Positions 2,304 to 60,429 of a DNA stretch of 64,000 nt are shown in pieces (position 1 is the stretch's first letter; each line of letters begins with the position of its first letter). Source of the DNA: Candidatus Magasanikiibacteriota bacterium (lineage in GTDB: Bacteria > Patescibacteriota > Patescibacteriia > Magasanikbacterales > GWA2-37-8); assembly GCA_041666745.1 (NCBI GenBank), contig JBAYGI010000001.1, positions 6,447 to 70,446 of the forward strand, read 5' to 3'. The position numbers and the translations under genes were made by a program. The notes under the pieces were generated by a model. It was not told where the DNA came from, searched no databases, and saw only the letters and a list, made by a program, of their open reading frames with translations.

Positions 2304-3619
2304 ATACAAAAATTGCTCAACAATTAAAAAATTTGCCTGATGCGCCTGGGGTGTATCTGTTTTTTAATTCCAAAAAGGAGCTGATATATGTCGGCAAGGC
2401 GTCGTCTTTGAAAAACCGCGTGAGAGGATATTTTAAGGAGCTGGATTCCCGCCTGCGCGGGAATGACAAGAGTGGATTGTCACGTCCGATAGAGGAAATG
2501 ATTCACGAAGTGATGAACTTCAAAACGGAAGAAACCGATTCGGCTTTGGAGGCGGCGATTTTGGAAGGGAAGTATATTAAGGAAAATAGGCCGAAATATA
2601 ATATTGATTGGCGGGATGATAAGAGTTGGAATTATATTGTTATTACAAAGGATAAGTTTCCACGAGTTTTGACTATTCGTCAACATGAGTTAAAAAATGG
2701 AGGAGGGATTCCTCCGCTCGCTACGCTCGGTCGGAATGACAAACGACTTCGCGGGAATGACAAATATAAGTATGTGTTTGGGCCGTATCCGGGGTTGAAC
2801 ACCAAAGAAGCCTTGCGTTTATTGCGTAAAATTTTTCTTTTTTCTACTTGTGAACCAAATGCCAAGCGTCCGTGTTTTTCTTATCAGATCGGTCAATGTT
2901 TGGGAGTGTGTACGGGAGAAATTTCACCCAAAGATTATTCGGCAAAAGTAATTCGACCACTTTGTTTATTTTTGGGTGGAAAGAAAAAAATATTAATGAA
3001 GAAAACAGAAAAAGAAATGAACATGGCCGCTAAATTGGAAAATTTTGAAGAGGCGAGCAGATTGAGAAACCAACTTCGTCATTTGCAAAAAATTCAAGAC
3101 GTGGCTTTATTGAATGATAGTTTTTTGAGAGATATTACGAAAAGGAATTCCTTGGCCGGTCGGAATGACATGAGGATCGAGGGTTATGATATCTCCAATC
3201 TAGGTAGTAGCAATAAAGTGGGTAGTATGGTAGTATTTGATGAGGTTGGGCCGGTAAAAAATCAATATCGTAAATTCAAAATCAAGACAGTGGTGGGGCA
3301 GAGTGATGTGGATTGTTTGGCGGAAGTGTTGGAGCGTCGGATAAAACATGCCGAATGGATATTGCCAAATATTTTTTTAATTGACGGTGGTTTGCCTCAA
3401 GTAAATAAAACTAAATCGGTTTTGCGAAGGGCTGGGATAAATACACCGATAGTCGGCATTGCCAAAGGGGCAAAGCGTAAACGCAATGATTTTTTTGTAG
3501 TAACTGAATCTTTGGAGATAAAAAACTGGATAAAAGAAAATAAAGAGCTGTTGATCAGAGTCCGCGACGAAGCGCATCGATTTGCTATCAAGTTTAATCG
3601 AGTACAGAGAAAAATATGA
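2300..3619 (+). CDS. uvrC: excinuclease ABC subunit C-like (UvrC lacking the C-terminal HhH2 domain)
   Basis: GIY-YIG N-terminus (GVYLFFNSKKELIYVGKASSLKNRVRGYF). Cys-rich region CFSYQIGQCLGVCTG. UVR motif EEASRLRNQLRHLQ. RNaseH-like endonuclease domain (RIEGYDISNLG...IAKGAKRKRND...RDEAHRFAI). Ends with TGA. Hosts three in-frame palindromic-repeat insertions. Confidence 0.8.
   Translation: MNTKIAQQLKNLPDAPGVYLFFNSKKELIYVGKASSLKNRVRGYFKELDSRLRGNDKSGLSRPIEEMIHEVMNFKTEETDSALEAAILEGKYIKENRPKYNIDWRDDKSWNYIVITKDKFPRVLTIRQHELKNGGGIPPLATLGRNDKRLRGNDKYKYVFGPYPGLNTKEALRLLRKIFLFSTCEPNAKRPCFSYQIGQCLGVCTGEISPKDYSAKVIRPLCLFLGGKKKILMKKTEKEMNMAAKLENFEEASRLRNQLRHLQKIQDVALLNDSFLRDITKRNSLAGRNDMRIEGYDISNLGSSNKVGSMVVFDEVGPVKNQYRKFKIKTVVGQSDVDCLAEVLERRIKHAEWILPNIFLIDGGLPQVNKTKSVLRRAGINTPIVGIAKGAKRKRNDFFVVTESLEIKNWIKENKELLIRVRDEAHRFAIKFNRVQRKI
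2443..2469. repeat. TGTCATTCC/GGAATC palindromic element, in-frame in uvrC
   Basis: ggattcccgcctgcgcgggaatgacaa encodes DSRLRGNDK. Confidence 0.7.
2705..2763. repeat. palindromic element, 1.5 tandem copies, in-frame in uvrC
   Basis: gggattcctccgctcgctacgctcggtcggaatgaca followed by cgacttcgcgggaatgacaa encodes GIPPLATLGRNDKRLRGNDK. Its reverse complement closely matches the intergenic copy at 7445-7505. Confidence 0.7.
3144..3170. repeat. palindromic element, in-frame in uvrC
   Basis: ggaattccttggccggtcggaatgaca encodes LAGRNDM. Confidence 0.6.
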
Positions 3620-3666
3620 AATTAACCCAAAAGATGGGTAAATAAGCGCTAAATAGGGGGGTAGGC

Positions 3667-4026
3667 TTGACATTTTTTCATTTTTTGTTTATTATATTGC
3701 TGTTTATGTTAGCCAAAAATAATCGAGGCGAATCTTGGTTGGAAGCATTAAAATTCATTGGTCATTGTCCGATTTGCAATCAGCGTTATGAAGAAAATCA
3801 GGCCAAGCTTTTTGCCAAACATGATTCAGCCAATTTGATTCATATTACTTGTGGCAAATGCGCCGGTAATTTTATTGCCATGATAGTGATGATGGGGCAA
3901 GGATTGAGTTCGGTTGGTATGGTGACAGATCTGACGTTTGAGGATGCTAAACAACTTTATAAAACAGCGCCACTGACAGTAGATGAAGTTATCAGTGGTT
4001 ATCAATTTTTTCAAAAAAATTATTAA
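3667..4026 (+). CDS. hypothetical small protein with N-terminal TM segment and CxxC...CxxC zinc-ribbon
   Basis: TTG start at 3667 follows a GGGGGG RBS; the alternative ATG is at 3706. CPICNQ ... CGKCAG motif. Confidence 0.45.
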   Translation: MTFFHFLFIILLFMLAKNNRGESWLEALKFIGHCPICNQRYEENQAKLFAKHDSANLIHITCGKCAGNFIAMIVMMGQGLSSVGMVTDLTFEDAKQLYKTAPLTVDEVISGYQFFQKNY

Positions 4027-4048
4027 TAATAAATTAAATTTGTAAGAT

Positions 4049-4759
4049 ATGACATATTTGTTGCAAGCGGTGACCCGCACTATCAAAGGAGCAGACTCTC
4101 GTGAACAGGGGAAATTACCGGCCGTGACTTACGGAGCGGGAAATGAAACTATTTCCTTGGATTTGAATTATGCTGATTTCCTCAAACTCTACAAACAAGC
4201 TGGTGATTCCAGTTTGATTGATTTGGAAATTGACGGAAAAAATGTTGGAAAAGTATTGGTGCACGAAGTACAATATAATCCGGTAAAAGATACTCCAACT
4301 CATGTGGATTTGCGTCGTATTGATATGAACAAAGTAATGCAAGCTCCAGTGGTGTTGCATTTCATTGGCGAAGCTCCAGCAGTAAAATCTATGGGTGGTA
4401 CTTTGGTACAAAACATCTCTCAGGTTACTGTAGAATGTTTGCCAAAAGATTTGGTATCCGCTCTTGAAATTGATTTATCTATTTTGAAGTCTTTTGAAGA
4501 AGTGGTCAAAGTGAAAGATTTGGTTTTACCAGCCGGTTTGAAAATCGTGGCTCCTCAAGGCGATGTGTTGGTGACCAAAGTTGTCGCCTCAATGACTGAA
4601 GAAGAAATCAAAGCCATGGAAGAAGCTGGCAAAAATATGGATGTCAGTAAGATCGAATCTGCTGCCAAGAAGAAAGAAGAAGAGGCAGTGGAGGGTGAAG
4701 CTCCAGCCGCTGGCGCTGAAAAGAAGGTTGAAGAAAAGAAACCAGCTGAAAAGAAATAA
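4049..4759 (+). CDS. rplY: 50S ribosomal protein L25 (Ctc form) with Lys/Glu-rich C-terminal tail
   Basis: LPAVTYGAGNETISLDLNYADF...VLVHEVQYNPVKDTPTHVDLRRI matches the L25/Ctc beta-barrel. Confidence 0.85.
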   Translation: MTYLLQAVTRTIKGADSREQGKLPAVTYGAGNETISLDLNYADFLKLYKQAGDSSLIDLEIDGKNVGKVLVHEVQYNPVKDTPTHVDLRRIDMNKVMQAPVVLHFIGEAPAVKSMGGTLVQNISQVTVECLPKDLVSALEIDLSILKSFEEVVKVKDLVLPAGLKIVAPQGDVLVTKVVASMTEEEIKAMEEAGKNMDVSKIESAAKKKEEEAVEGEAPAAGAEKKVEEKKPAEKK

Positions 4760-4772
4760 TACAAAATTACGA

Positions 4773-4803
4773 ACACCCTTCTTTTTGGAGGGTGTTTTTT
4801 TTG
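4773..4803 (+). terminator. rho-independent terminator
   Basis: acaccct/agggtgt stem followed by a T8 run. Confidence 0.75.
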
Positions 4804-4855
4804 CTTTTTTATGATTAATTTGTTAATATTTAGAGGTTAGTTTAAAAAAATATTT

Positions 4856-6406: not shown

Positions 6407-6408
6407 AT

Positions 6409-7437
6409 ATGATAAATAAAATAGTTAATAATAAAAAGTTTTTTAATATTTTTTTAGTGGTATTTGTAGTGATTGTTTTATTGGCCGTGTCGTATTTTAT
6501 TTGGCAAAGTTTTGATCATAAAATTTCTTGGAAAAAATTTGTCACACCTCCAGTTGTTTTTTATAGTTCGTTGGATGGTTTGCCGGTTAGTAGTACTCAA
6601 AAGGTCAGTTCGACCGTGGTTGGTATTATGATTGACAATCACCCATACGCTCGTCCACAAAGCGGGTTGTTGTCTGCCAAAATAGTTTATGAGGCGCTGG
6701 TGGAGGGTGGTATCACTCGGTATTTTGCTATTTTTGATAGCGAACAAAATGTAGAAAAAGTTGGTCCGGTACGTAGTGCTCGGTCATATTTTATTGATTG
6801 GTTGCAAGAATATGGTGGGTTATACATGCATTGCGGTGGGTCACCAGAGGCATTGGATAGATTGAGAAAAGAAAGTATTTTTGATCTCAACGAAATGTTT
6901 CGTGGTGCTTATTTTTGGCGTGATGACAATAAATTTGCTCCACACAACCTGTTTACTAATAGTGAAAATTGGAATAAGGCGCTGTTGGCATTTCCTGAAG
7001 ATAAAAATATTTTTAATAACACGTGGCAGTTTGGCGAATTGTCATCCAGTAGTTTGGAAATGGTAAAAAATATTTCCATCGAATATTCATCGGATTATGC
7101 GGTGGGGTGGCAATATGATGAAAATCTGAAAAACTATGGTCGGTATATAAATGGTGCGGTAGAGCAGGAGAACCAAATAAATCTGACAGCTGACAGTGTT
7201 GTGATTCAATATGTGAAATCACGAGTCATTGATGATTATGGTCGGCGAGAAATCACCACCGATGGACAGGGCGATCTGCGGTTGTTGCGAGATGGTGTAA
7301 TGGCGCGAGGTATTTGGAAAAAAGAAAATGGACGAACTAGGTTTTATGATAATGCCGGGCAAGAGTTGAACTTGAAGGCTGGCAAAATTTGGGTACAGGT
7401 GGTGCCGTTGGACACGGAAATAAAAATCACCGCTTAA
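6409..7437 (+). CDS. membrane-anchored DUF3048-like protein (YerB-like)
   Basis: N-terminal TM helix, then IDNHPYARPQSGLLSAKIVYEALVEGGITRYFAIF, which is typical of DUF3048. Confidence 0.55.
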   Translation: MINKIVNNKKFFNIFLVVFVVIVLLAVSYFIWQSFDHKISWKKFVTPPVVFYSSLDGLPVSSTQKVSSTVVGIMIDNHPYARPQSGLLSAKIVYEALVEGGITRYFAIFDSEQNVEKVGPVRSARSYFIDWLQEYGGLYMHCGGSPEALDRLRKESIFDLNEMFRGAYFWRDDNKFAPHNLFTNSENWNKALLAFPEDKNIFNNTWQFGELSSSSLEMVKNISIEYSSDYAVGWQYDENLKNYGRYINGAVEQENQINLTADSVVIQYVKSRVIDDYGRREITTDGQGDLRLLRDGVMARGIWKKENGRTRFYDNAGQELNLKAGKIWVQVVPLDTEIKITA

Positions 7438-7444
7438 ACAAAAT

Positions 7445-7505
7445 TGTCATCCCGACCGAGTTTCGCAACGAGCGGAGGGATCCCTCGGTTTCACTCGGGA
7501 TGACA
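7445..7505. repeat. extended palindromic element (same family) between convergent genes
   Basis: tgtcatcccgaccgag...gagggatccctc...ctcgggatgaca. Matches the reverse complement of 2705-2741. Likely also acts as a bidirectional terminator. Confidence 0.7.
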
Positions 7506-7513
7506 GCGCGGTA

Positions 7514-8371
7514 TTAGGTGGATATTTTTAGTATTCGATCTAGACCGGCGAGGTCTTTTTTTATTTCTGTTGTACTTTGTGGTAAATAATGTTTGGCCAG
7601 TTGTTTTATTTGCTCACTTTGATTTGGGTCGATTTCCAAAAAAATCAAGAGTTTTTTGTTGGAAAACAGGCTGGAGATTTGTTTTAGGAGTTGGCGGTAT
7701 AGGGCTAGTCCATTTTCTTTGGCCACCAATGCAATCCTCGGTTCTTTTTGGATTGAAGGCTCTGTTTTGATCTGTGCAACTGTCAGATAAGGGAGGTTGG
7801 CGGTGATTATTATTTGGTCAAATGATGAATGATCGAGATTAAGTATTTTTGTTAGTAAATTACTTTTTAAAAGTTCCAAATTTTTATTGTCATTCCCGTG
7901 AAAACGGGAATCCAGAATCTTTATAATATTTTTTTTAGCTATTTTTAATGCTTGATTGGAAATATCCAAAGCAATAGTCCGGCTAATATTTTTGCTGTTT
8001 TTTAAAATGGAAATTGGAATACAACCACTGCCGGTGCCGACATCAATCAGCAATATTTTTTTTGACGAATCTTTTATTTCATTTAATACATTTTCTACCA
8101 TCAATTCGGTTTCCGGACGGGGGATCAAAACGTGTTTGTTTACCAAAAATTCTAAACCAAAAAATTCTTTTTGTCCGGTGATTGAGGCTACCGAATATCC
8201 TCGATTGAATAAAAATAAATAATAAATAAAACGCCAATATTGTGCCAAATCCAGTTGGTATTCCGGATGGGAGAGTACAAAAACCCGATCTTTGTGAATG
8301 GCTTGTGCCAACAATAATTCGGCTTCAATCGTCGAGTTTTTGAGAAGATTTTTTATGGTAAAATTAAACAT
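7514..8371 (-). CDS. prmC: release-factor glutamine N5-methyltransferase PrmC/HemK
   Basis: SAM motif [20 protein letters not shown]-like motif NLPY. Overlaps prfA, the classic operon arrangement. Contains an in-frame palindromic repeat encoding [10 protein letters not shown] at 7887-7913. Confidence 0.8.
7887..7913. repeat. palindromic element, in-frame in prmC
   Basis: ttgtcattcccgtgaaaacgggaatcc. Confidence 0.7.
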
Positions 8372-9425: not shown

Positions 9426-9442
9426 ATCTTATCTATAGTATA

Positions 9443-9490: not shown

Positions 9491-9494
9491 ATAG

Positions 9495-10850: not shown

Positions 10851-10876
10851 TTGTCATTCCCCTGAAAAGGGGAATC
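10851..10876. repeat. palindromic element (intergenic rpsB-tsf)
   Basis: ttgtcattcccctgaaaaggggaatc. Confidence 0.7.
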
Positions 10877-10890
10877 TAAATTATAATTAT

Positions 10891-22925: not shown

Positions 22926-24470
22926 ATGACTGAACACAAAACTACATTATTGGTTATTTTAGATGGTTGGGGCATAGAACAAAAAGAAAATACTCTCAAT
23001 CCAATTGTGCCTGAACACGCCCCAAATTATTTTGATTTTCTAAAAAAATATCCCAATACTCAACTACAAGCCAGTGGTGAAGCGGTCGGCTTGTTTAAAG
23101 GACAAGAAGGAAACAGTGAAGCCGGACATATCAATTTGGGGGCTGGTAGAGTAGTAAAGCAAGATGCTTTGTATATTAGCGACGCGATTGCCAATGGAAC
23201 ATTTTTTAAAAACAACGCTTTTCATCAGGCGTTGCATCATGTCAAAAAATACAATACCGCCGTTCATTTGATGGGATTATTGTCCAACCACAATAGTGCT
23301 CATTCCTGTCCGGAACACTTGTATGCTTTGATAGATTTGTTGCATCGAGAAAAAATTAAAAAAGTTTATTTACATTTATTTACCGATGGGCGTGACTCCG
23401 CTCAACATGATGCGGTGCGTCACTTGGAAAATCTGAGGGAACATCTCAAAGGCAATGAAAAAATAGCCACTGTGATAGGGCGTTTGTTTGCTATGGACAG
23501 GAATAAAAATTGGAAAAGAGTGAAGTATGCTTATGAAGCGCTGATACTTGGCAAAGGTATGACCGCCAACGGGGCAGAAGATGCGCTTCTAAAAGCCTAC
23601 AATCGTGGAGAAACAGATGAGTTTGTGGACCCAACTATAATATTGGAAAAGAAAAAACCGGTGGCTACTATCAAAAATAATGATGCGGTAATATTTTTCA
23701 ATTTGCGCAGTGATCGAGCCCGTGAGTTGACCAAAGCATTGGTTCAACCGGATTTTGAAAAAGTAAACCCGGGCGCTTTCAAACGATCACACATGCCAAA
23801 AAATATTCGGTTTGTCGCGTTGACAGATTTTGGCCCGGATCTTCCCGGTGTTTTGACCGCATATCCAAGTTGTGATGTAAAAAATAGTTTGGTGCAAGTT
23901 TTGTGTCCTAAAAAACAATTGTACGTCGCGGAATCAGAAAAATTTGCCCATGTCACTTATTTTTTTAATGGTGGTTATGCGCAACATTTTTGTGATGAAG
24001 ATTGGGTAAGAACACCAACTCCAACCGCTGAAAATTATGAAAATAAACCGGAAATGAATGCCAAAGGAGTGGGAGATAAAGTGGTAGAGGCTATTAAATC
24101 CGGCAAATACGATTTTATTGTTTGTAATTTTGCCAATGCCGACATGGTGGGGCATACTGGCAATTTCAAAGCCGGTCAAGAAGCAATAAAAGTAGTAGAC
24201 GAACAACTCGGTAGAATAGCCCAAGCTTTGACATCGGCCAAGGGCCAGGGTATAATCACAGCCGATCATGGCAATATCGAAGAAATGATGAATATACGAA
24301 CCGGTGGAGTGGATACGGAGCATTCTTTGAATCCGGTGCCGTGTATTATAATCGGATCAGGAGCCAAACAAATTCACAAATCCGGCAAGCTGGCCGACGT
24401 GGCTCCAACATTATTAAAAATGATGGGAGTGGAAAAACCAAAAGAGATGACCGGTAAATCATTAATATAA
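22926..24470 (+). CDS. gpmI: 2,3-bisphosphoglycerate-independent phosphoglycerate mutase (copy 1)
   Basis: LLVILDGWG, the catalytic-Ser region GNSEAGHINLGAGRV, and ADHGN. Confidence 0.9.
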   Translation: MTEHKTTLLVILDGWGIEQKENTLNPIVPEHAPNYFDFLKKYPNTQLQASGEAVGLFKGQEGNSEAGHINLGAGRVVKQDALYISDAIANGTFFKNNAFHQALHHVKKYNTAVHLMGLLSNHNSAHSCPEHLYALIDLLHREKIKKVYLHLFTDGRDSAQHDAVRHLENLREHLKGNEKIATVIGRLFAMDRNKNWKRVKYAYEALILGKGMTANGAEDALLKAYNRGETDEFVDPTIILEKKKPVATIKNNDAVIFFNLRSDRARELTKALVQPDFEKVNPGAFKRSHMPKNIRFVALTDFGPDLPGVLTAYPSCDVKNSLVQVLCPKKQLYVAESEKFAHVTYFFNGGYAQHFCDEDWVRTPTPTAENYENKPEMNAKGVGDKVVEAIKSGKYDFIVCNFANADMVGHTGNFKAGQEAIKVVDEQLGRIAQALTSAKGQGIITADHGNIEEMMNIRTGGVDTEHSLNPVPCIIIGSGAKQIHKSGKLADVAPTLLKMMGVEKPKEMTGKSLI

Positions 24471-24471
24471 T

Positions 24472-26049
24472 ATGGCTTATAAATTAGTAACGTTAGCAAT
24501 TTTTGATGGTTTGGGTGTGGCACCTGATTCGGATGGCAACGCGGTCACTCGCGCTAAAATGCCAAATTTCAAAAATTATATAAAAAATTATCCGGTCATG
24601 ACGGTGTTTGCTTCCGGAAATGAAGTTGGTTTGTCATTTGGTGAAATGGGTAATTCGGAAGTAGGCCATCTCAACATTGGTGCTGGTCGTGTATATTATC
24701 AGTCTTGTCCGCGTATTAATAACGAAATTGGTAACGGTGAATTTTTTAAGAACACGGCTTTTTTGGGCGCGTTGGAACATATCAAAAAAAATAAATCCAA
24801 TTTGCATTTGATCGGACTGCTGGGTATTGGCAATGTTCATGCCAGCGATAGTCATCTGTATGCCTTGTTGGATTTTTGCGCTCAAAACAAATTAGAAAAA
24901 AATGTATTTGTGCATGGGGTGTTGGATGGACGTGATGCCTTGTACAACTCCGGTAAAAATTTCGTGACTGATTTGTTGGCAAAAATGAAAGTGACGAAAG
25001 TTGGACAGATTGCTTCTTTGTCCGGACGTTTTTATGCTTTGGATCGAGACAACCGCTGGGATCGTTGTGAAAAAGCTTATCAGGCAATGGCGCTGGGAAA
25101 AGCAGATAGAAACAGTGATGATCCGTTGAAAATTATAGATGAATCTTATGAACAAAAAAATTACGATGAAGAATTTGTACCGACAGTGATCACCAAGGGT
25201 GGAAAACCGGTAGCCACTATCAAAGAAAATGACGCGGTAATTTTTTTCAATTTTCGTCCGGATCGAGCGCGTGAGTTGACCAAAGCTTTTGTTTTGCCCG
25301 GGTTTAATAAATTCGAAAGAGAATATATAAAAAATTTATTTTTTGTAACCATGACGGAATTTGAAAAAGATTTGCCAGCCGTAGTGGCTTATCCGCCGAT
25401 TGTGGTGCACAATTCGTTGGCTGAAACGGTGAGCAAAGCCGGTAAAAAACAATTTCATGTGGCCGAAACAGAAAAATACGCGCATATCACTTTCTTTTTA
25501 AACGGGACGGTTGAGGAACCATTTGCGGGAGAAGATAGAATGATTGTTCCTTCACCAAAGGTGTCTTCTTATTCTGAAGCGCCGGAAATGTCGGCAGCTT
25601 TGGTATCCAAAGAAGCAGTGAAAGCAATCGATAGTGGAAAATATGATTTGGTCGCTTTGAATTTTGCCAATGCGGATATGGTTGGTCATACTGGTGATTT
25701 GGCAGCTACCATCAAAGGGTGCGAAGCGGCCGATAAAGCTCTAGGTGAAGTGGTTGAGCACACTTTGGCCAAAGGTGGCGTGGTAGTGATAACCGCTGAC
25801 CATGGCAATGCGGAAGAAGTGATAAATTTACAAACTGGCGCAATGGACAAAGAACATTCCACCAATCCGGTGCCATTGTTGGTTGTTGGCAAAGATTTTG
25901 AAGGACAAGCCGGTCCGGCTGGTGAGCCACCCGAGGGGGATTTGAGTTTGATGCATCCAGTCGGGGTGTTGGCCGATGTAGCGCCGACAGTTTTGAGTCT
26001 GATGGGTGTACCACAACCACCGGAAATGACTGGCGCGGCTTTGATTTAA
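24472..26049 (+). CDS. gpmI: 2,3-bisphosphoglycerate-independent phosphoglycerate mutase (copy 2, tandem paralog)
   Basis: LAIFDGLGV, GNSEVGHLNIGAGRV, TADHGN. Motifs are intact in both copies. Confidence 0.9.
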   Translation: MAYKLVTLAIFDGLGVAPDSDGNAVTRAKMPNFKNYIKNYPVMTVFASGNEVGLSFGEMGNSEVGHLNIGAGRVYYQSCPRINNEIGNGEFFKNTAFLGALEHIKKNKSNLHLIGLLGIGNVHASDSHLYALLDFCAQNKLEKNVFVHGVLDGRDALYNSGKNFVTDLLAKMKVTKVGQIASLSGRFYALDRDNRWDRCEKAYQAMALGKADRNSDDPLKIIDESYEQKNYDEEFVPTVITKGGKPVATIKENDAVIFFNFRPDRARELTKAFVLPGFNKFEREYIKNLFFVTMTEFEKDLPAVVAYPPIVVHNSLAETVSKAGKKQFHVAETEKYAHITFFLNGTVEEPFAGEDRMIVPSPKVSSYSEAPEMSAALVSKEAVKAIDSGKYDLVALNFANADMVGHTGDLAATIKGCEAADKALGEVVEHTLAKGGVVVITADHGNAEEVINLQTGAMDKEHSTNPVPLLVVGKDFEGQAGPAGEPPEGDLSLMHPVGVLADVAPTVLSLMGVPQPPEMTGAALI

Positions 26050-28050: not shown

Positions 28051-30681
28051 ATGAAAGAATTACCAAAAGCCTACGAACCGCAAAAATACGAGGATTCTAT
28101 CTATAAACGCTGGGAAGAAAGTGGATATTTTAATCCGGATAATTTGTCTGGTGAACCGTTTTCTGTTTTGTTTCCACCCCCAAATGTTACCGGTGTTTTA
28201 CATCTTGGGCATGCGTTGGAAAATTCTTTGATGGATGCCATGATTCGCTATCAGCGTATGAAAGGTAAAAAAACTTTGTTGTTACCTGGTACTGATCATG
28301 CGGCAGTGGCCACGCAAGCAAAAGTAGAAAAAGATTTGATTAAACAGGGGCACATTCATCCACGCGAAGAATACGGTCGTGAAAAGTTGTTGGAAATTAT
28401 TCGCGACTATGCGGAAAAATCCAAAAGCACTATTTTAAATCAAATTAAAAAAATGGGAACCAGTTGTGATTGGTCTCGTTTGGCTTATACTTTTGATGAC
28501 CAGCGCAGTGTGGCGGTAAATACGGTTTTTAAAAAAATGTATGATGATGGTTTGATTTATCGTGGCTATCGTGTGGTCAATTGGTCGGTAAAGGGGCAAT
28601 CTACTTGTTCTGATGATGAGCTGGTGCATATTGAGCGTGATGCCAAAATGTATACTTTTAAATATTCAAAAGATTTTCCATTAACAATTTCTTCGACTCG
28701 TCCGGAAACAAAACTGGGTGATACAGCAGTGGCGGTCAATCCAAATGATGAACGTTATAAAAAATATATTGGTCAAACTTTTGTGGTAGATGTAGGTGCA
28801 GAAAAACTACTGAACATAAAAATCATTGCTGATGATGGTGTGGATATGGAGTTTGGTACAGGCGCTTTGGGAGTAACGCCGGCACACAGCGCGGTTGATT
28901 ATGAAATGTATATTAAACAAAAAACTCAAGGTAGTCCGATAGATTTAATTCCAGTAATTGGGATGGATGGAAAAATGTTGCCTACAGCCGGTAAAAAATA
29001 CGTCGGTTTGAAAACTGTGGAAGCTCGTGAAAAATTTGTAGAGTGGTTAAAAGAAAATGATTTGCTGATCAAGGAAGAAGATATAAAACAAAATGTTGGT
29101 ACGTCTGATCGTTTTGGTGATGTGGTTGAGGCTCTGCCAATGACTCAGTGGTTTGTCGATGTTAATAAAATTATTTCCGGTAAAAATAAAAGTCTGAAAG
29201 ATTTAATGAAAGAGGCGGTGACCATCGGTCATAGTGGTGATAAAGATAAAAAAATAAAAATTACGCCGGAACGTTTTGAAAAAGTTTATTTAAATTGGAT
29301 AGAAAATTTGCGTGACTGGTGTATTTCTCGCCAAATTTGGTGGGGTCATCGTATTCCGGTATGGTATAAAGGCGAAGAAGTTTTTTGTGGTTTAACCGCG
29401 CCGACTGATGGTGATTGGAAACAAGATGAAGATACTTTGGACACCTGGTTTAGCTCTGGTTTGTGGACATTTTCTACTTTGGGTTGGCCTAATGAGAAAA
29501 AAGATTTAGGTGTTTTTCATCCCTCCAGCTGGATGCAGATGGGTAATGAGATTATTTTCTTTTGGATGGCTAGAATGATTTTGATGACGACTTATGTCAT
29601 GGATACAATTCCGTTTAAAGAAGTTTATATTCATGGCATGTTGCGCGATGAACATGGCAAGAAATTTTCCAAATCAGCGGACAATGGTATTGACCCTCTG
29701 GATGCGGTCAAAGATTATGGTTGTGATGCTTTGCGTTTGAGTTTGTTGTCGGGTATTTCACCAGGGAATGACTCGTCTTTTTATAAAGAAAAAATAGAAG
29801 GATCACGCAATTTTGTAAATAAACTTTGGAATATTTCACGGTACGTTTTCTTGCAGATTGAAAAAGCAGATAAAAATATTTTGAAACCTCAAGCCAAAAC
29901 TTTGGCCGATCGTTGGATTCTTAGTCGCTTGGAAACAGTAAAATTAGATGTTGAAAAATTGTTGGATCGTTCGGATTTTTCATTGGCAGTTGAAAATTTA
30001 CGTACTTTTACTTGGACCGAATTTGCCGATTGGTATGTAGAGATTGCTAAAATTGAGAACGATAAGCAAGAAATTTTGAATTATCTGCTCAATACAATTT
30101 TGAAACTTTGGCATCCGTTCATACCGTTTGTGACTGAACAAATTTGGAGTGAAATTTACGATGAAAAAGAAATGTTGATGGTAGAAAAATGGCCAACGGC
30201 TGTCATTCCGAGCGAGACCGAGGAATCCCTTGACACATTTGAAATCATCAAAAATATTATTACCGGTATTCGCGCTTTGCGTGCCGAAAATAAGATTGAA
30301 CCGGCCAAAAAATTGGACGCGACGATCGGTGCTGACGAAAAAATTAATTTGATTAAAGAAAATTCGGATATTATCAAAATCTTGGCTCGTTTGGAAAATT
30401 TGGAAATTTTAGAAAAAGCTAAAAAATCCAAAACCGCCGTTGGGTTTGTAGAGGGAATAGTCGAAGTGTTTGTTGAATTAGCCGGAGTGATAGATTTGGA
30501 CAAAGAAAAAGAACGTTTGCAAAAAGAATTTGAAACGTTGACTAAATTTATCAATGGTCTGGAAAATAAATTGGCTAATGAGGAATTTGTCCAAAACGCA
30601 CCAGCGGTAGTGGTGGCCAAAGAAAAACAAAAATTGCAAGAGGCGCAAGAAAAATTGGATAAAATTGAAGCTCAACTTTAA
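28051..30681 (+). CDS. valS: valyl-tRNA synthetase
   Basis: HIGH (PNVTGVLHLGHAL), KMSKS (KFSKSADNG), and a C-terminal coiled coil. Contains an in-frame palindromic repeat at 30201-30229. Confidence 0.95.
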   Translation: MKELPKAYEPQKYEDSIYKRWEESGYFNPDNLSGEPFSVLFPPPNVTGVLHLGHALENSLMDAMIRYQRMKGKKTLLLPGTDHAAVATQAKVEKDLIKQGHIHPREEYGREKLLEIIRDYAEKSKSTILNQIKKMGTSCDWSRLAYTFDDQRSVAVNTVFKKMYDDGLIYRGYRVVNWSVKGQSTCSDDELVHIERDAKMYTFKYSKDFPLTISSTRPETKLGDTAVAVNPNDERYKKYIGQTFVVDVGAEKLLNIKIIADDGVDMEFGTGALGVTPAHSAVDYEMYIKQKTQGSPIDLIPVIGMDGKMLPTAGKKYVGLKTVEAREKFVEWLKENDLLIKEEDIKQNVGTSDRFGDVVEALPMTQWFVDVNKIISGKNKSLKDLMKEAVTIGHSGDKDKKIKITPERFEKVYLNWIENLRDWCISRQIWWGHRIPVWYKGEEVFCGLTAPTDGDWKQDEDTLDTWFSSGLWTFSTLGWPNEKKDLGVFHPSSWMQMGNEIIFFWMARMILMTTYVMDTIPFKEVYIHGMLRDEHGKKFSKSADNGIDPLDAVKDYGCDALRLSLLSGISPGNDSSFYKEKIEGSRNFVNKLWNISRYVFLQIEKADKNILKPQAKTLADRWILSRLETVKLDVEKLLDRSDFSLAVENLRTFTWTEFADWYVEIAKIENDKQEILNYLLNTILKLWHPFIPFVTEQIWSEIYDEKEMLMVEKWPTAVIPSETEESLDTFEIIKNIITGIRALRAENKIEPAKKLDATIGADEKINLIKENSDIIKILARLENLEILEKAKKSKTAVGFVEGIVEVFVELAGVIDLDKEKERLQKEFETLTKFINGLENKLANEEFVQNAPAVVVAKEKQKLQEAQEKLDKIEAQL
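30201..30229. repeat. palindromic element, in-frame in valS
   Basis: tgtcattccgagcgagaccgaggaatccc encodes VIPSETEES. About 93% identical to the intergenic copy at 60401-60429. Confidence 0.75.
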
Positions 30682-34730: not shown

Positions 34731-34814
34731 CACATCTTTACAGCATCTACATACAGGTATAGTATAATTTCTAGGCTTGTTTTGCCGTCTCTAAGGACGG
34801 AAAAGAGAGGGATC

Positions 34815-36032
34815 ATGCGAATTGAGCGACCTATCCGACCAAATTGGCCGGAGCGCAAATGGCCGCGTGTGGCCTTTATTGCACACGCGCTTTTGGACGG
34901 GTATCGCTCAACCGACTTGATCAGTCGACGGTTGGACGAACTCGGGCAAAAGTGGCCCCAGGATGGCGAGGATCCCGGGTTTATCAACTGGTTCTCCTTT
35001 CCTGTCACTCCGGTGGATGGTCAGGGACAGTCGGTGTGGGTTGATTTCTATATCATCCCGGTTCTGGCTGGACAATTTCTGGCTGCCTGCAAGAGCGGGC
35101 AGGCATACGACTGGGCGGAAGCTGTCGCACTCGCCGCGATCGCTGAAGCCAAGGCCGACGGTGTTCACATTACCGTTGGTTGGGGTGCGTTGACGAAAGT
35201 CGCGACTACTCACGGCGCTCGTTTTTTGGAGCGTAATGCGTGGGTGAAGTCCGACGATATGGTTTCGACTACCCATGGTGATGCCGGCACGGCCGCCTTG
35301 GTTCTCGAGACTATCCGTCGAGCTGGTTTCAAGCGAGGTTTTCGCGTTGCGGTGATTGGTGCCAACGGCGCCATCGGTGACGCGATTTCACGTTTGCTTC
35401 CTTCGCTTTCTCCTGAGAGCATCTTGCTCGTGGGGAAGGGCGGAGAGGTGAATGCCTCCCGCTTGAACGAATTGCGCGCGCGGGTGTTTGGTGGTGGTGA
35501 TCGAGTCGCCATTCACCAAGACAAATCGAGCGCGTGTCATGATCACCGGAGCGATTTGGTGATCATCGCGACTACCGGTATGGATATCGCTCCGAGCGAA
35601 ATCCCGTTGGGCGCACTCGTGCTCGACATGACAACTCCGTCTGCGTGCCACGCCAATAGCGAATGGCAGAATAACCGGTTGGTTCTAGCTTCCGGGTGTG
35701 GTCGGTTCGCCGATCGTGCCGTGAAGGAATCTTTCGGTCAATTCGGCGGCGAGTTGCTCGCGGACGTTGGAGCTGGCGGTCACCATGTGTTGTGGGGGTG
35801 CGCCGGCGAGACCATTACGCGAGCGGTCGCTGAATGGCACGGACACGTGGCTGGCACCAATATCCCTCTCGGGGATATCCAGTGGTGCGACAGTCATTTT
35901 CCGGAGCTGGGTTTCGCCCCCCAGTTGCCAGTCTCATTCGGGAGGAGTCTCGACTGGTCGGACGTGCACGCTTTCGTCGAGCGTTCACAAAAAAGAATTT
36001 CGGTGCAGGCGTCGCAACACCTTCACCAGTAA
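34815..36032 (+). CDS. high-GC Rossmann-fold NAD(P)-binding oxidoreductase-like protein (foreign composition)
   Basis: GC is far above the flanks. VAVIGANGAIGDAISRLL is a GxGxxG-type dinucleotide-binding motif. A TATAAT-like element is at about 34768 and a GAGAGGG RBS precedes ATG 34815; the ORF-track start at 34782 is also possible. Family is unassigned. Confidence 0.6.
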   Translation: MRIERPIRPNWPERKWPRVAFIAHALLDGYRSTDLISRRLDELGQKWPQDGEDPGFINWFSFPVTPVDGQGQSVWVDFYIIPVLAGQFLAACKSGQAYDWAEAVALAAIAEAKADGVHITVGWGALTKVATTHGARFLERNAWVKSDDMVSTTHGDAGTAALVLETIRRAGFKRGFRVAVIGANGAIGDAISRLLPSLSPESILLVGKGGEVNASRLNELRARVFGGGDRVAIHQDKSSACHDHRSDLVIIATTGMDIAPSEIPLGALVLDMTTPSACHANSEWQNNRLVLASGCGRFADRAVKESFGQFGGELLADVGAGGHHVLWGCAGETITRAVAEWHGHVAGTNIPLGDIQWCDSHFPELGFAPQLPVSFGRSLDWSDVHAFVERSQKRISVQASQHLHQ

Positions 36033-50559: not shown

Positions 50560-50755
50560 ACCCCCCTTGACAACCCAAGGGGGTTTTGGTATAGTGATTG
50601 CACCATAGACAGCAGGTGGCGAAAGCCTTAATTACCTGCCGAGGTACAAAAACTAATACTGGATTCCCACTTTCGTGGGAATGACAGTGTAGGAAGTCGA
50701 TTTGTACTGTATTATACGTCTGTGGAAACACAGATTTTTTTGTTAAAAAATCGTT
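50560..50755 (+). promoter_or_regulatory. ribosomal protein L10 leader (rplJL autoregulatory 5' UTR)
   Basis: Structured region directly upstream of rplJ (ccccccttgacaacccaagggggtt hairpin and others). It contains one palindromic-repeat copy. Confidence 0.5.
50660..50685. repeat. palindromic element within the L10 leader
   Basis: ggattcccactttcgtgggaatgaca. Confidence 0.65.
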
Positions 50756-54827: not shown

Positions 54828-54833
54828 AGTTTT

Positions 54834-55214
54834 ATGTACTTGATGATTGATAATTCATTGGACGATAAAACTGTTTTTCATTATTGCTTGGATACAGATT
54901 GGGTTCAGCGCGAGTTTGATCGGGACGGTCAGGATTTGTTGGCTATTATTGATCGGCTGTTGTCGGATGAAAACAAACAACTTTCAGATTTACGCGGTTT
55001 GGCCGTAGTGGTTGGAAAAGGTAAATTCACCGCCACTCGTATTGCCGTCACCGTAGCCAACACTTTGTCGTATGCTCTGAAAATTCCGGTTTTGGCAGTG
55101 GATGGTTGGTATGAAAATTTAACAAAAGATATTCAATCATCACCGGTAGGGCAATATGTTAGTGCGCAATATAGCGCCCCCGCTCACATTGGTGGTAGTA
55201 AACAAGGAGTATGA
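54834..55214 (+). CDS. tsaB: TsaB (YeaZ)-like N-terminal-half protein, short form
   Basis: LMIDNS...LSDLRGLAVVVGKGKFTATRIAVTVANTLSYALKIPVLAV matches the TsaB N-domain. It is only 126 aa. Confidence 0.55.
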   Translation: MYLMIDNSLDDKTVFHYCLDTDWVQREFDRDGQDLLAIIDRLLSDENKQLSDLRGLAVVVGKGKFTATRIAVTVANTLSYALKIPVLAVDGWYENLTKDIQSSPVGQYVSAQYSAPAHIGGSKQGV

Positions 55215-58083: not shown

Positions 58084-58084
58084 T

Positions 58085-59092: not shown

Positions 59093-59116
59093 TTTTCTTC
59101 ATTTTTTTTATTTTTC

Positions 59117-59248
59117 GGACAAGCCTTGATAATATGTATTTTGAAACACGTGTCGGTTTTGTTTCGACAAAACCGCACTCTCACTCACTTCGGCTGTGAG
59201 ACCGAAGTTCCGTGGCGGTTTCAAAACACATATTACCAAGGCTTGTCC
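59117..59248. repeat. 31-bp near-perfect inverted repeat pair flanking a 70-bp hairpin-rich core (MITE, inverton or sRNA-like)
   Basis: Left ggacaagccttgataatatgtattttgaaac (59117-59147) against right gtttcaaaacacatattaccaaggcttgtcc (59218-59248): 29 of 31 complementary. Both mismatches would be G-U pairs in a minus-strand transcript. The core has cggtttt/aaaaccg and cttcgg/ccgaag hairpins. Confidence 0.7.
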
Positions 59249-59267
59249 TCTGAATATCTTCTTTTTT

Positions 59268-60389
59268 ATGTTTATTGGTATCGATGCTTCACATGCAAAT
59301 AAGTTACAACGGACTGGTGTGGAAGAATATTGTTGGCAGGTGATTCAGGAATTAAAAAAAATTGTGCCGAGTGACTGTCGGGTGGTTTTGTATTCCAATG
59401 GTAATTTGTTGCCGGAGTTGGATCAGTTGCCGGCAAACTGGGAATTAAAAATTTTAAAATGGCCATTGAAAAAAATGTGGAGCCAGTTTCCTTTGGCTTA
59501 TGAGCTTTGGAAAAATCCGCCGGATGTTTATTTTTCTCCGGGACAATTGTTGCCATTTTTTGCTCCCAAAAATTCGGTGGTGATGGTGCACGATAGCGCG
59601 TTTGAAGCTTATCCGAATGTTTATAGATTTTTTGGTCGGCAATATTTGAAATGGATGAATCGGTTGATTGTCAAAAAATCTAAGTTGATTTTAACTTCGA
59701 CGGAATTTAATAAACAGGAAATGTTAAAATTTTATGATTCCCCCCACTGTCATTCCGACCGACTGAAAGGAGTGGAGGAATCTCTTTCCAATAAAATAAA
59801 AGTTATCCCCCTGGCCTGTGATTCTAAAAAATTTAATTTAGAAAAATCCGCCGGTCAAAATATTTATGGTAAATATATTTTGTCTATTGGTCGGCTGGAA
59901 GAAAAAAAGAATACCGCTAGAATTGTGGAAGCTTTTGGTTTGGTAAAAAAACAATTTTCAGATTTAAAATTGGTTTTAATTGGAAAACACGGAGCGTGTT
60001 TTGAAAAAATTCAGAGAGCGATTGATAGTAGTGAATACAAAAAAGACATTATTTTACTTGGGTTTGTGGAGGCGGATGAATTGTTAACTATATTAAAAAA
60101 CGCGCAGGTATTCGTGTTTCCTTCACTGTATGAGGGGTTTGGTATTCCAGTATTGGAGGCGATGACGGTGGGAGTACCGGTGGTGGTGAGTAAAGGCGGT
60201 GCTTTGGAAGAAGTAGGAAAAGAAGCGGTGGAGTGTGTGGATCCACTGGATACAAAAGATATTAGCGAGAAAATTTTAAACCTTTTGCAGGATGAAGAAT
60301 ATAAAAAACAAAAAATCGCCTTAGGTTTGGAAAGAGTAAAACAATTTTCTTGGGAAAAAACCGCGCGAGAGACATACCTATCATTATGA
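59268..60389 (+). CDS. GT4-family glycosyltransferase
   Basis: E-x7-E motif (EGFGIPVLEAMTVGVPVVVSKGGALEEV). ATG at 59268 preferred. Contains an in-frame palindromic repeat at 59748-59784 encoding CHSDRLKGVEES. Confidence 0.85.
   Translation: MFIGIDASHANKLQRTGVEEYCWQVIQELKKIVPSDCRVVLYSNGNLLPELDQLPANWELKILKWPLKKMWSQFPLAYELWKNPPDVYFSPGQLLPFFAPKNSVVMVHDSAFEAYPNVYRFFGRQYLKWMNRLIVKKSKLILTSTEFNKQEMLKFYDSPHCHSDRLKGVEESLSNKIKVIPLACDSKKFNLEKSAGQNIYGKYILSIGRLEEKKNTARIVEAFGLVKKQFSDLKLVLIGKHGACFEKIQRAIDSSEYKKDIILLGFVEADELLTILKNAQVFVFPSLYEGFGIPVLEAMTVGVPVVVSKGGALEEVGKEAVECVDPLDTKDISEKILNLLQDEEYKKQKIALGLERVKQFSWEKTARETYLSL
59748..59784. repeat. palindromic element, in-frame in the GT4 gene
   Basis: tgtcattccgaccgactgaaaggagtggaggaatctc. 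Confidence 0.7.
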
Positions 60390-60400
60390 TGAATATTGCC

Positions 60401-60429
60401 TGTCATTCCGAGCGAAGCCGAGGAATCCC
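60401..60429. repeat. palindromic element (intergenic)
   Basis: tgtcattccgagcgaagccgaggaatccc, a near-identical copy of the one in valS. Confidence 0.75.

What the first reader, a model, noticed from the sequence alone, without database searches (positions are those of the whole stretch)
2443..60429. Dispersed palindromic element family (TGTCATTCC...GGAATC) that repeatedly sits in-frame inside essential genes
At least 10 copies of a 25-60 bp palindromic element occur in this 64-kb window. They share the cores TGTCATTCC(C/G) and (C/G)GGAATC(C) around a variable loop. Intergenic copies are at 7445-7505, 10851-10876, 50660-50685 and 60401-60429. In-frame copies inside coding sequence are at uvrC 2443-2469 (DSRLRGNDK), 2705-2763 (GRNDKRLRGNDK) and 3144-3170 (GRNDM); prmC 7887-7913 (RFHGNDNK, minus strand); valS 30201-30229 (VIPSETEES); and the GT4 gene 59748-59784 (CHSDRLKGVEES). 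The valS copy and the 60401 intergenic copy are about 93% identical. The 2705 copy is the reverse complement of the 7445 intergenic copy. The two orientations give two recurring peptide signatures (xRGND / VIPSE..EES). This mirrors the Rickettsia palindromic elements that invade ORFs without breaking the frame. To my knowledge it is not a described feature of small CPR-type genomes.
Basis: seen in the sequence. Interest (0 to 1): 0.65.

Follow-up and report, generated by a model that had tools for sequence, protein, structure and literature searches.

The report
Neisseria-type hairpin repeats inside CPR genes
A tiny-genome (Magasanikbacteria) bacterium carries a dozen copies of a 26-40 base hairpin repeat, the same kind already described in Neisseria and Rickettsia, and over half of them sit in frame inside housekeeping genes as extra protein loops, which extends a known phenomenon to a new lineage.

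Summary
TGTCATTCC occurs 10 times against 0.58 expected, and I count 12 units at 10 loci.

The element is not a new family. The short copies (TGTCATTCCC-N8-GGGAATCC) match the Neisseria dRS3/NTS repeat, one of them with a single mismatch. They belong to the "Ssn-related motif" (SRM) / CGTC-tagged REP superfamily, which includes Rickettsia RPE-4 and RPE-6. That superfamily is already known to sit in frame in genes, often DNA-repair genes.

Syntenic relatives show empty sites for uvrC sites 1 and 2 and for the 7445-7505 dimer. A GT4 ortholog also lacks the element. Older, decayed but still in-frame copies are shared with relatives at uvrC site 3, prmC, GT4 and rpsB-tsf.

In valS the element mostly replaces an existing loop (net +3 aa). 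The 50660 copy is a 38-nt insertion in the L10 leader.

The same motif occurs in more than 20 phyla, in other CPR genomes and on viral contigs. No Ssn-type nuclease or transposase lies in the about 75 kb I could read, so the mobilising enzyme is inferred.

Verdict: a new member of a known kind, of moderate interest.

The parts
2441..2468 (-). Short NTS-type hairpin unit (TGTCATTCCCGCGCAGGCGGGAATCCAG). It sits in frame in the uvrC GIY-YIG domain at site 1 and encodes LDSRLRGNDK.
   Evidence: It matches the published SRM pattern, and the NTS consensus with 1 mismatch. It forms an 8-bp stem, -8.9 kcal/mol as DNA. The 30 nt are absent from L151 and L152. It lies in a low-pLDDT coil in the UvrC model.
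2742..2762 (-). Truncated short unit (TGTCATTCCCGCGAAGTCG...). It keeps only the head and left arm, abuts the next unit, and is in frame in uvrC (RLRGNDK).
   Evidence: Sequence reading. It is part of the +51-nt block absent from L151 and L152.
2705..2741 (-). Long variant unit (TGTCATTCCGACCGAGCGTAGCGAGCGGAGGAATCCC). It is in frame in uvrC at site 2 (GIPPLATLGRNDK).
   Evidence: It is about 80% identical to unit 7445-7484. It is absent from the closest orthologs. pLDDT is below 50 for residues 134-152.
3144..3170 (-). Degenerate unit (TGTCATTCCGACCGGCCAAGGAATTCC). It is in frame in uvrC at site 3 (RNSLAGRNDM) and is an older insertion.
   Evidence: A decayed copy is shared with L151 and is absent in L152. 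The hairpin is weak, -1.9 kcal/mol. The segment with pLDDT below 50 (residues 267-289) covers most of the insert at residues 282-291.
7445..7484 (+). Long variant unit and left half of a tail-to-tail dimer, between the convergent genes DUF3048 and prmC.
   Evidence: In L151 and L152 the two genes abut with no spacer, which is the empty site. The basal stem shows a compensatory change, ATCCC/GGGAT instead of ATTCC/GGAAT.
7477..7505 (-). Medium variant unit (TGTCATCCCGAGTGAAACCGAGGGATCCC) and right half of the dimer. It shares the central GGGATCCC with the left unit.
   Evidence: Its mini-hairpin GTGAAAC, against GCGAAGC in 60401, is a compensatory change.
7888..7915 (+). Short NTS-type hairpin (TGTCATTCCCGTGAAAACGGGAATCCAG), antisense and in frame in prmC ([10 protein letters not shown]).
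   Evidence: It matches the SRM pattern and forms an 8-bp stem, -7.8 kcal/mol. The L151 ortholog carries the same insert, [15 protein letters not shown].
10852..10877 (+). Short hairpin (TGTCATTCCCCTGAAAAGGGGAATCT) in the 45-nt rpsB-tsf spacer.
   Evidence: An orthologous copy with a decayed stem is present in L151.
30201..30229 (+). Medium variant unit, sense and in frame in valS (AVIPSETEESL), in the loop after the EKWP motif.
   Evidence: It is 27/29 identical to 60401. The closest ortholog P0260 lacks it, and the net change is only +9 nt. Other orthologs carry independent copies in other frames.
50659..50686 (-). Short hairpin (TGTCATTCCCACGAAAGTGGGAATCCAG) inside the L10 (rplJ) leader RNA.
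   Evidence: The Rfam RF00557 alignment places it in a 38-nt insertion within the linker, between the protein-binding stem and the terminator. Over TGTCATTCCCACGAAAGTGGGAATCC it is identical, except for the first base, to copies flanking N. gonorrhoeae ssnA. The two bases after that differ, AG here against GG or TA there.
59748..59784 (+). Long variant unit, sense and in frame in the GT4 glycosyltransferase (CHSDRLKGVEESL).
   Evidence: The 73%-identical ortholog L153 lacks it and is 7 aa shorter. L154 has a decayed copy. Distant homologs lack 15 aa at this point.
60401..60429 (+). Medium variant unit, 12 nt after the GT4 stop codon and upstream of a separate terminator-like hairpin.
   Evidence: The region downstream of the L154 ortholog lacks it.

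Best explanation
These are small, non-autonomous hairpin repeats of the dRS3/NTS type, also called Ssn-related motifs or CGTC-tagged REPs. Each unit has three parts:
- a fixed 5' head, TGTCAT;
- a basal stem ATTCC/GGAAT (or ATCCC/GGGAT) closing a variable apex;
- a 3' C.

Shown here. Copies have been gained at different times in this Magasanikbacteria lineage. Intergenic DNA is about 8% of the window but holds 4 of the 10 loci. The six intragenic copies lie in loops or linkers of UvrC, PrmC, ValRS and a GT4 enzyme. All keep the reading frame.

Inferred. Five of the six reading frames through the conserved parts of the element are open. Insertions that added a multiple of three bases in a permissive loop therefore survived selection and are translated as short hydrophilic loops. 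Once inside a gene they evolve as coding sequence while the hairpin decays.

Inferred from the literature, not shown here. Spread works through single-stranded DNA hairpins handled by a trans-acting, hairpin-specific small GIY-YIG nuclease. This would be an Ssn-type enzyme or the related 84-aa CPR family. Phage or transformation would carry the system between phyla.
For: Identity of the element:
- Copy 2441-2468 fits the NTS consensus CGTCATTCCCGCGMAVGCGGGAATCYRG with one mismatch. Two copies fit the published SRM pattern, against 0.05 expected.
- Four copies fit dRS3, ATTCCC-N8-GGGAAT.
- BLAST finds the same roughly 30 nt at up to 100% identity in Photobacterium and Azospirillum, and at 91-97% in Cupriavidus and Neisseria. 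Coxiella and Legionella give weaker matches of 84-93%.
- N. gonorrhoeae and Aeromonas ssnA homologs are flanked by near-identical units.

Hairpin constraint:
- The inner stem pairs of the four short copies are all different and all complementary.
- In 155 instances from 120 genome loci, each of the two outer N8 pairs is complementary in 151 of 155. The loops are GAAA, GAAG or GCAG.

Insertion rather than ancestry:
- Empty sites exist in syntenic relatives for uvrC sites 1 and 2 and for the 7445-7505 dimer.
- The L153 GT4 ortholog lacks the element, and the closest ValRS ortholog lacks it.
- Decayed in-frame copies are shared with relatives at uvrC site 3, prmC, GT4 and rpsB-tsf.
- Ten of 120 UvrC orthologs carry strict element-derived peptides, against 0.65 in shuffles, at several sites and in both orientations.

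Location in loops: all three UvrC inserts fall in low-confidence coil segments of the AlphaFold model. The N-terminal GIY-YIG domain aligns as 110 residues against 99 in a solved UvrC structure.

Selection filter: coding density is about 0.91, yet only 6 of 10 loci are intragenic. My own binomial estimate gives P of about 0.006.

Link to the nuclease: 7 of 120 genome loci of up to 8 kb holding the motif, and 4 of 120 viral loci, also encode an Ssn homolog. The literature shows that Ssn binds the hairpin. It depends on the C after the palindrome and cuts just 5' of it. Both features are conserved here.
Against: - No Ssn homolog, RAYT or other transposase is present in the window or in the extra 11 kb of the same contig. 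The only GIY-YIG domain there is UvrC's own.
- The related 84-aa GIY-YIG genes of CPR, including Magasanikbacteria, are not directly flanked by the repeats. The nearest dimers are 0.8-1.9 kb away.
- Transposition by Ssn has never been demonstrated, even in Neisseria (discussion of PMC11893778).
- Only 2 of 12 units satisfy the strict SRM pattern, and none has the CGTC tag. All have TGTC.
- The valS case is almost length-neutral, which a simple insertion model does not predict.
- No target-site duplication or clear target motif was seen.
- Translation of the inserts is inferred from intact frames only.
Confidence: 0.75

Rival explanations
1. The copies are functional cis-acting hairpins, acting as RNA terminators, attenuators or mRNA stabilisers, or as DNA structural sites. 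On this reading the cell maintains them and they are not selfish insertions.
For: Four loci lie just 3' of genes or in a leader. These are the dimer between convergent genes (7445-7505), a copy 6 nt after the rpsB stop that is conserved in position in L151, a copy 12 nt after the GT4 stop, and one inside the L10 leader. REPs are reported to lie mostly downstream of ORFs and to be transcribed.
Against: Six of the 10 loci are inside coding sequence in either orientation. The older coding copies and the L151 rpsB-tsf copy have lost the stem. The 60401 copy is followed by a separate canonical-looking terminator hairpin. The same sites are empty in close relatives with the same gene order.
Confidence: 0.12
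2. The repeats serve as 'self' marks for an Ssn-type single-strand nuclease that trims incoming transforming DNA, as proposed for NTS in Neisseria. Their spread would then be a by-product of that system.
For: The determinants that matter for SsnA are conserved in 11-12 of the 12 units. These are the GTC just 5' of the palindrome, the basal stem, and the C just 3' of it. The motif co-occurs with Ssn genes in other phyla. It is established knowledge, not tested here, that CPR bacteria carry DNA-uptake machinery.
Against: No Ssn gene lies in the roughly 75 kb available. The copies do not bracket particular genes the way the Neisseria clusters do. Copies inside genes are decaying.
Confidence: 0.12
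3. The nucleotide similarity is coincidental or reflects ancestral coding sequence, or it is an assembly or binning artefact.
For: The ValRS segment has the same length as the corresponding loop in solved ValRS structures.
Against: The motif is enriched 17-fold over shuffles. Copies in unrelated genes and in spacers are 93% identical. The closest orthologs lack the segments. Independent assemblies from other samples carry orthologous copies.
Confidence: 0.01

Closest known systems
Neisseria Transformation Sequence (NTS) and Ssn-related motifs (SRM), the targets of the GIY-YIG single-strand nuclease SsnA (PMC11893778, Nat Commun 2025)
   Same: The head (H)GTCAT, the palindrome ATTCCC-N8-GGGAAT with a GNRA-like loop, and the 3' C followed by CAG are all shared. 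One window copy differs from the NTS consensus at a single base. Another matches, over 26 bases and except for its first base, copies that flank the N. gonorrhoeae ssnA homolog.
   Different: The first base is T rather than C in all 12 units. Eight units have longer, imperfect apices that fail the published pattern. No ssnA gene lies nearby. Most loci are inside genes, whereas NTS clusters lie around genes.
Neisseria dRS3 repeat (ATTCCC-N8-GGGAAT)
   Same: Four window copies fit the dRS3 definition exactly.
   Different: dRS3 repeats are intergenic, form mosaic arrays with other repeats, and serve as phage integration targets in Neisseria. Here the copies are single units or dimers, and most are intragenic.
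CGTC-tagged REP superfamily, including Rickettsia conorii RPE-4 and RPE-6 (Di Nocera et al. 2013, PMC3733652)
   Same: These are short tagged stem-loops that occur singly or as inverted dimers. They are found inside genes in frame, notably excinuclease and other repair genes, and no dedicated transposase is known.
   Different: The tag here is TGTC, not CGTC. CPR (Patescibacteria) was not among the five phyla listed in that paper.
Rickettsia palindromic element RPE-1 (Ogata et al. 2000, as cited in PMC3733652)
   Same: A palindromic repeat inserted in frame into housekeeping genes and tolerated as an extra surface segment.
   Different: From my own knowledge, RPE-1 is much longer (about 100-150 bp, 30-50 aa) and has an unrelated sequence. 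The units here are 26-40 bp (9-13 aa).
Classical REP/BIME elements with RAYT transposases (GTAG-tagged)
   Same: Short hairpin repeats, inverted dimers, and presumed mobilisation as single-stranded hairpins by a trans-acting enzyme.
   Different: The tag is different (GTAG). No RAYT (IS200/IS605-like) gene is present.

Membership tests
NTS / Ssn-related motif (SRM) | 5' head HGTCWY immediately before the palindrome | tested here: met
   All 12 units begin with TGTCAT.
NTS / Ssn-related motif (SRM) | A 20-50 nt imperfect palindrome able to form a hairpin | tested here: met
   The short copies form perfect 8-bp stems of -7.3 to -9.8 kcal/mol as DNA. The longer copies have a 5-bp basal stem plus a mini-hairpin. 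Compensatory changes are seen within the window and in 151 of 155 instances elsewhere.
NTS / Ssn-related motif (SRM) | A conserved C immediately 3' of the palindrome, which is critical for SsnA binding | tested here: met
   Eleven of 12 units have it. The exception is the degenerate copy at 3144-3170.
NTS / Ssn-related motif (SRM) | Match to the published search pattern HGTCWYN(0-2)YYVSBRHN(0-5)WNVSBRGN(0-2)RNCYNB | tested here: inconclusive
   Only 2 of 12 units match, against 0.05 expected from shuffles. The others fail on stem variants, a longer apex or the last tail base.
NTS / Ssn-related motif (SRM) | An ssnA (cd10448 GIY-YIG) gene in the genome, typically flanked by the repeats | tested here: inconclusive
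   None is present in the window or in 11 kb of flanks. The rest of the 222-kb contig and the rest of the genome could not be read. A related 84-aa GIY-YIG family exists in Magasanikbacteria but is not directly flanked by the repeats.
NTS / Ssn-related motif (SRM) | Specific binding and cleavage by the cognate Ssn nuclease on single-stranded DNA | not testable with these tools
   This needs biochemistry.
dRS3 | Exact ATTCCC-N8-GGGAAT | tested here: met
   The copies at 2445-2464, 7892-7911, 10856-10875 and 50663-50682 fit. The other eight units do not.
CGTC-tagged REP superfamily | The tetranucleotide CGTC at one end of the stem-loop | tested here: not met
   All 12 units have TGTC, so only GTC is shared. 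Both tags occur elsewhere: C 106 and T 59 among instances on viral contigs.
CGTC-tagged REP superfamily | Short stem-loops occurring as singletons or inverted dimers, some intragenic and in frame | tested here: met
   There is a tail-to-tail dimer at 7445-7505 and there are six in-frame loci.
Rickettsia palindromic elements (RPE-1 type) | In-frame insertion into ORFs that stay intact | tested here: met
Rickettsia palindromic elements (RPE-1 type) | The RPE-1 consensus and its length of about 100-150 bp | tested here: not met
   The units are 26-40 bp. Sequence comparison with RPE-1 was not made. The link to RPE-4 and RPE-6 rests on PMC3733652.
REP/RAYT (GTAG REPs) | A GTAG tag and an associated RAYT tyrosine transposase | tested here: not met
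   There is no GTAG tag. No Y1 transposase appears among the called genes of the window.
MITE | Terminal inverted repeats, target-site duplication, and a length of 70-300 bp | tested here: not met
   The 61-bp dimer has inverted heads, but no duplication is visible when the filled site is compared with the empty site.

The most novel reading that the evidence does not exclude
In CPR bacteria the NTS-type hairpin may be propagated not by canonical Ssn but by the distinct 84-aa single-domain GIY-YIG family that is widespread in Patescibacteria. Insertion may also be targeted rather than random. The same loops of UvrC (the site after YF[AK]) and of ValRS (after EKWP) have been hit independently, in both orientations and in several frames, in different lineages. 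In ValRS the element replaces loop codons instead of adding to them. If both points hold, these hairpins would be a recurrent, semi-targeted generator of protein-loop variation in minimal genomes, spread across more than 20 phyla by phage.
Probability: 0.15. Interest if true: 0.6.

Novelty: new member of a known kind. Interest (0 to 1): 0.35.

Why it matters
- It places the Neisseria NTS/dRS3 hairpin, almost base for base, in a Magasanikbacteria (CPR) genome. It also shows the hairpin in at least 11 other CPR loci. That widens the reported range of the SRM/CGTC-REP superfamily.
- It gives clean filled-site versus empty-site pairs that date insertions. These are useful for working out how these repeats move, which is still unknown.
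- In a genome with about 92% coding DNA, the repeats end up mostly inside genes. They therefore contribute to the lineage-specific protein insertions that make CPR proteins hard to align.
- For annotation, peptides such as DSRFRGND, VIPAKAGIQ and CHSERSEES flag repeat-derived segments.

Tried and rejected
- One-mismatch matches to TGTCATTCC are at chance level and lack partners, so they are not family members.
- The Rfam gathering scan has no family for the element. It found only the L10 leader and a tRNA.
- I looked for a mobilising gene in three ways: Pfam on small unassigned ORFs, tblastn and HMM searches with four real Ssn proteins, and an HMM built from the CPR GIY-YIG family. All were negative in the window and flanks.
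- I tested whether CPR 84-aa GIY-YIG genes are flanked by the repeats. They are not directly flanked, and there are too few distinct loci for statistics.
- NCBIfam could not separate Ssn from the CPR family.
- A loose scan for any GTC-tagged hairpin gave 51 hits against 37.6 in shuffles. The excess is the known family plus one singleton at 35535-35567.
- No orientation bias was found relative to the strand or the host gene (6 plus, 6 minus), and the GC skew is uniform across the window.
- No target-site duplication was found.
- I did not obtain a PrmC alignment without the element. The only close ortholog compared (L151) also carries it, and the alignments to solved structures are ambiguous in that region.
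- One preprint that mentions SsnA could not be opened.

Full report
**1. Observation**

The motif TGTCATTCC occurs 10 times exactly on the two strands of the window, against 0.58 +/- 0.70 in dinucleotide-preserving shuffles. With one mismatch allowed, the extra hits are at chance level (22 against 17.4). They also have no palindromic partner.

Reading each site on its tagged strand gives 12 units at 10 loci. Four are short perfect hairpins of the form TGTCATTCCC-N8-GGGAATC(C/T): 2441-2468(-), 7888-7915(+), 10852-10877(+) and 50659-50686(-). One is a truncated short unit, 2742-2762(-).

Seven units share the same head and tail but have a longer, imperfect apex:
- 30201-30229(+)
- 60401-60429(+)
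- 7477-7505(-)
- 3144-3170(-)
- 7445-7484(+)
- 2705-2741(-)
- 59748-59784(+)

All 12 start with TGTCAT. Eleven have a C right after the palindrome.

The four short copies carry four different inner stem pairs (GC/GC, GT/AC, CT/AG, AC/GT), and all are complementary. The two units of the 7445-7505 dimer carry a compensatory ATCCC/GGGAT basal stem. The mini-hairpin GCGAAGC in 60401 is GTGAAAC in 7477-7505.

Pfam confirms the host genes: uvrC (a short 439-aa form with GIY-YIG, UVR and RNase H domains), prmC, valS and a GT4 glycosyltransferase. All intragenic copies are in frame with the stated peptides.

The valS and 60401 copies are 27/29 identical. The 2705 copy is about 80% identical to the reverse complement of 7445, not an exact reverse complement.

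**2. What the element is**

A literature search on the palindrome ATTCCC-N8-GGGAAT led to two papers.

PMC11893778 (Nat Commun 2025) defines three things:
- the Neisseria Transformation Sequence, CGTCATTCCCGCGMAVGCGGGAATCYRG, which contains the older dRS3 repeat;
- a degenerate 'Ssn-related motif' (SRM);
- the association of both with a 94-aa single-domain GIY-YIG nuclease, SsnA, which binds the hairpin as single-stranded DNA and cuts just 5' of it.

Window copy 2441-2468 fits the NTS consensus with one mismatch, in the first base. Two copies fit the strict SRM pattern, against 0.05 in shuffles. The remaining copies fail on details.

PMC3733652 (BMC Genomics 2013) classifies such repeats as 'CGTC-tagged REPs'. 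It equates them with dRS3 in Neisseria and with RPE-4 and RPE-6 in Rickettsia conorii. It reports that they occur in frame inside genes, many of them replication and repair genes such as the excinuclease subunits. It also states that no dedicated transposase is known.

I checked these links on real sequence:
- BLAST of one window copy against plasmid and chromosome records finds up to 100% identity over 28-33 nt in Photobacterium and Azospirillum, and 91-97% in Cupriavidus and Neisseria. Coxiella and Legionella give weaker matches. Some hits lie inside annotated genes such as ileS.
- A probe written from memory was used only to locate real genes. It retrieved Ssn homologs in N. gonorrhoeae, Aeromonas, Spirosoma and Planktothrix.
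- The Neisseria gene is surrounded by nine NTS copies. These include CGTCATTCCCACGAAAGTGGGAATCC, which equals the window's L10-leader copy apart from the first base.

**3. Distribution**

By my own estimate, about 17 matches would be expected by chance in the whole collection.

The hits come from more than 20 phyla:
- 11 are CPR loci (Parcubacteria, Saccharibacteria, Uhrbacteria, Falkowbacteria, Paceibacterota and 'Patescibacteria group');
- one is a contig binned as Nanoarchaeota;
- one is a Rickettsia endosymbiont locus with six copies in 8 kb.

In the 155 instances, each of the two outer N8 pairs is complementary in 151, and the loops are GAAA, GAAG or GCAG. Seven of the 120 loci also encode an Ssn homolog, in some cases directly next to the repeat.

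Four of those 120 loci encode an Ssn homolog.

**4. Insertions, not ancestral residues**

*UvrC.* In an alignment with 28 orthologs, the closest ones (73% identity) lack the site 1 and site 2 segments. Other orthologs carry recognisable element peptides at the same and other positions, in both orientations. Examples are DSRFRGND, VIPAKAGIQ, SFAKAQDD and ..AGMT. A strict signature is present in 10 of 120 orthologs, against 0.65 in shuffles.

*Syntenic contigs L151 and L152* give DNA-level empty sites:
- Site 1 is +30 nt in the window and site 2 is +51 nt.
- Site 3 is shared with L151 in decayed form and is absent from L152.
- The 7445-7505 dimer sits where DUF3048 and prmC abut with no spacer in both relatives.
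- The prmC copy and the rpsB-tsf copy are shared with L151. The rpsB-tsf copy has a degraded stem in L151.

*GT4.* The 73%-identical ortholog lacks the segment. A 67%-identical one has a decayed copy. Distant homologs lack 15 aa there.

*ValRS.* The picture differs. The element lies in the loop after EKWP, and that loop has about the same length in solved ValRS structures. The closest ortholog lacks the element but is only 3 aa shorter. So the element largely replaced loop codons.

At least four other orthologs carry independent copies in this loop, in other frames. They are P0241, P0245, P0246 and P0270.

*L10 leader.* The copy is a 38-nt insertion in the linker of the RF00557 model.

*Structure.* An AlphaFold model of UvrC has mean pLDDT 80. 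It places all three inserts in low-confidence coil segments:
- residues 51-60 have mean pLDDT 56;
- residues 134-152 and 267-289 are below 50.

**5. How it most likely works**

Five of the six frames through the conserved head and tail are open. Only one antisense frame reads GAA TGA. The two peptide signatures are the antisense translation (LDSRxRGND) and the sense translations (VIPxxxxES, CHSxxxxES) of one element.

Coding density is about 0.91, yet only 6 of 10 loci are intragenic. My binomial estimate gives P of about 0.006. This fits frequent insertion followed by removal of most intragenic hits, with survival only in permissive loops. Older intragenic copies keep the frame but lose the stem. 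That argues against a function for the hairpin inside genes.

The mobilising activity is not shown. The window, plus 11 kb of flanks from the same 222-kb contig, has no Ssn, RAYT or other transposase. The integrase next to uvrC is conserved in synteny in L151 and looks like a housekeeping Xer-type recombinase.

One CPR locus holding the motif (L110) encodes an 84-aa single-domain GIY-YIG protein. This family is widespread in CPR, including Magasanikbacteria. It shares the Ssn core residues at about 30% identity and cross-hits Ssn profiles at 39-64 bits.

Its genes are not directly flanked by the repeats, however. Tail-to-tail dimers lie 0.8-1.9 kb away. I therefore treat nuclease-driven spread through single-stranded hairpins as an inference from the literature and from conserved recognition features, at roughly one chance in three.

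**6. Rivals**

- A regulatory hairpin role could apply to the intergenic copies, which lie just 3' of genes or in a leader. It cannot explain the coding copies, the empty sites in relatives, or the decay of stems.
- A role as a self-mark for an Ssn-type restriction of transforming DNA is possible but untestable without the nuclease gene.
- Coincidence or an assembly artefact is excluded by the enrichment, by the ortholog comparisons, and by orthologous copies in independent assemblies.

**7. Novelty**

The element family, its pan-bacterial spread, and its habit of sitting in frame in repair genes are all published. New here:
- its presence in CPR genomes with an invariant TGTC head;
- a high intragenic share;
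- dated filled-site and empty-site pairs;
- recurrent hits in the same UvrC and ValRS loops;
- the length-neutral ValRS case;
- longer-apex variants outside the published search pattern.

Searches of the paper library found nothing describing such repeats in CPR. I classify the finding as a new member of a known kind.

Noticed in passing
window 59140-59225 (+): An intergenic stretch of about 85 nt lies between the mreB-like gene and the GT4 start. It is conserved almost base for base with the relative L153, more than the flanking DNA. As RNA it folds into a three-helix structure of -32 kcal/mol, and one hairpin shows a compensatory change. Rfam gives no credible match. It may be an unannotated small RNA or leader.
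   Followed up: partly
L151 10083-11475: The syntenic relative carries a bAvd gene plus a reverse transcriptase, which looks like a diversity-generating retroelement. It lies between rpmE and rpsB. The window has nothing at that position.
   Followed up: no
window 35535-35567 (+): A single TGTC-tagged perfect 9-bp hairpin (TGTCATGATCACC...GGTGATCATC) lies in frame (CHDHRSDLVII) in the unannotated 416-aa ORF 34782-36032. It could be a lone member of another SRM-like family or a chance match. There is no second copy in the window.
   Followed up: partly
L037 (contig JAHIPG010000372.1): The exact TGTCATTCCC-N8-GGGAATCC motif also occurs on a 3.8-kb contig binned as a Nanoarchaeota (DPANN) archaeon. 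I did not check whether the contig is truly archaeal or misbinned.
   Followed up: no
L131-L140, 3001-4817: In Moranbacteria-type contigs the 88-aa GIY-YIG gene sits next to a large serine recombinase. It is followed by a fragment resembling a tRNA T-arm (GGTTCGAATCC). This suggests the gene rides on an integrated element.
   Followed up: no
L127 3001-5293: A Magasanikbacteria contig has two small GIY-YIG genes (86 and 88 aa) bracketing the infC-rpmI-rplT operon. A tail-to-tail dimer of a variant hairpin (TGTCATGCTGAA...TTCAGCATCC) lies between rplT and rpmI.
   Followed up: partly
window 22926-26049 (+): Two adjacent full-length paralogs of cofactor-independent phosphoglycerate mutase (514 and 525 aa) follow the enolase gene.
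   Followed up: no
window 7420-7530 compared with L151 6035-6075: The empty site of the 7445-7505 dimer is the loop of a pre-existing palindrome formed by the overlapping 3' ends of the convergent genes DUF3048 and prmC (AAAAATATCCAC TTAATCAG GTGGATATTTTT). The dimer therefore landed in the loop of a hairpin.
   Followed up: partly
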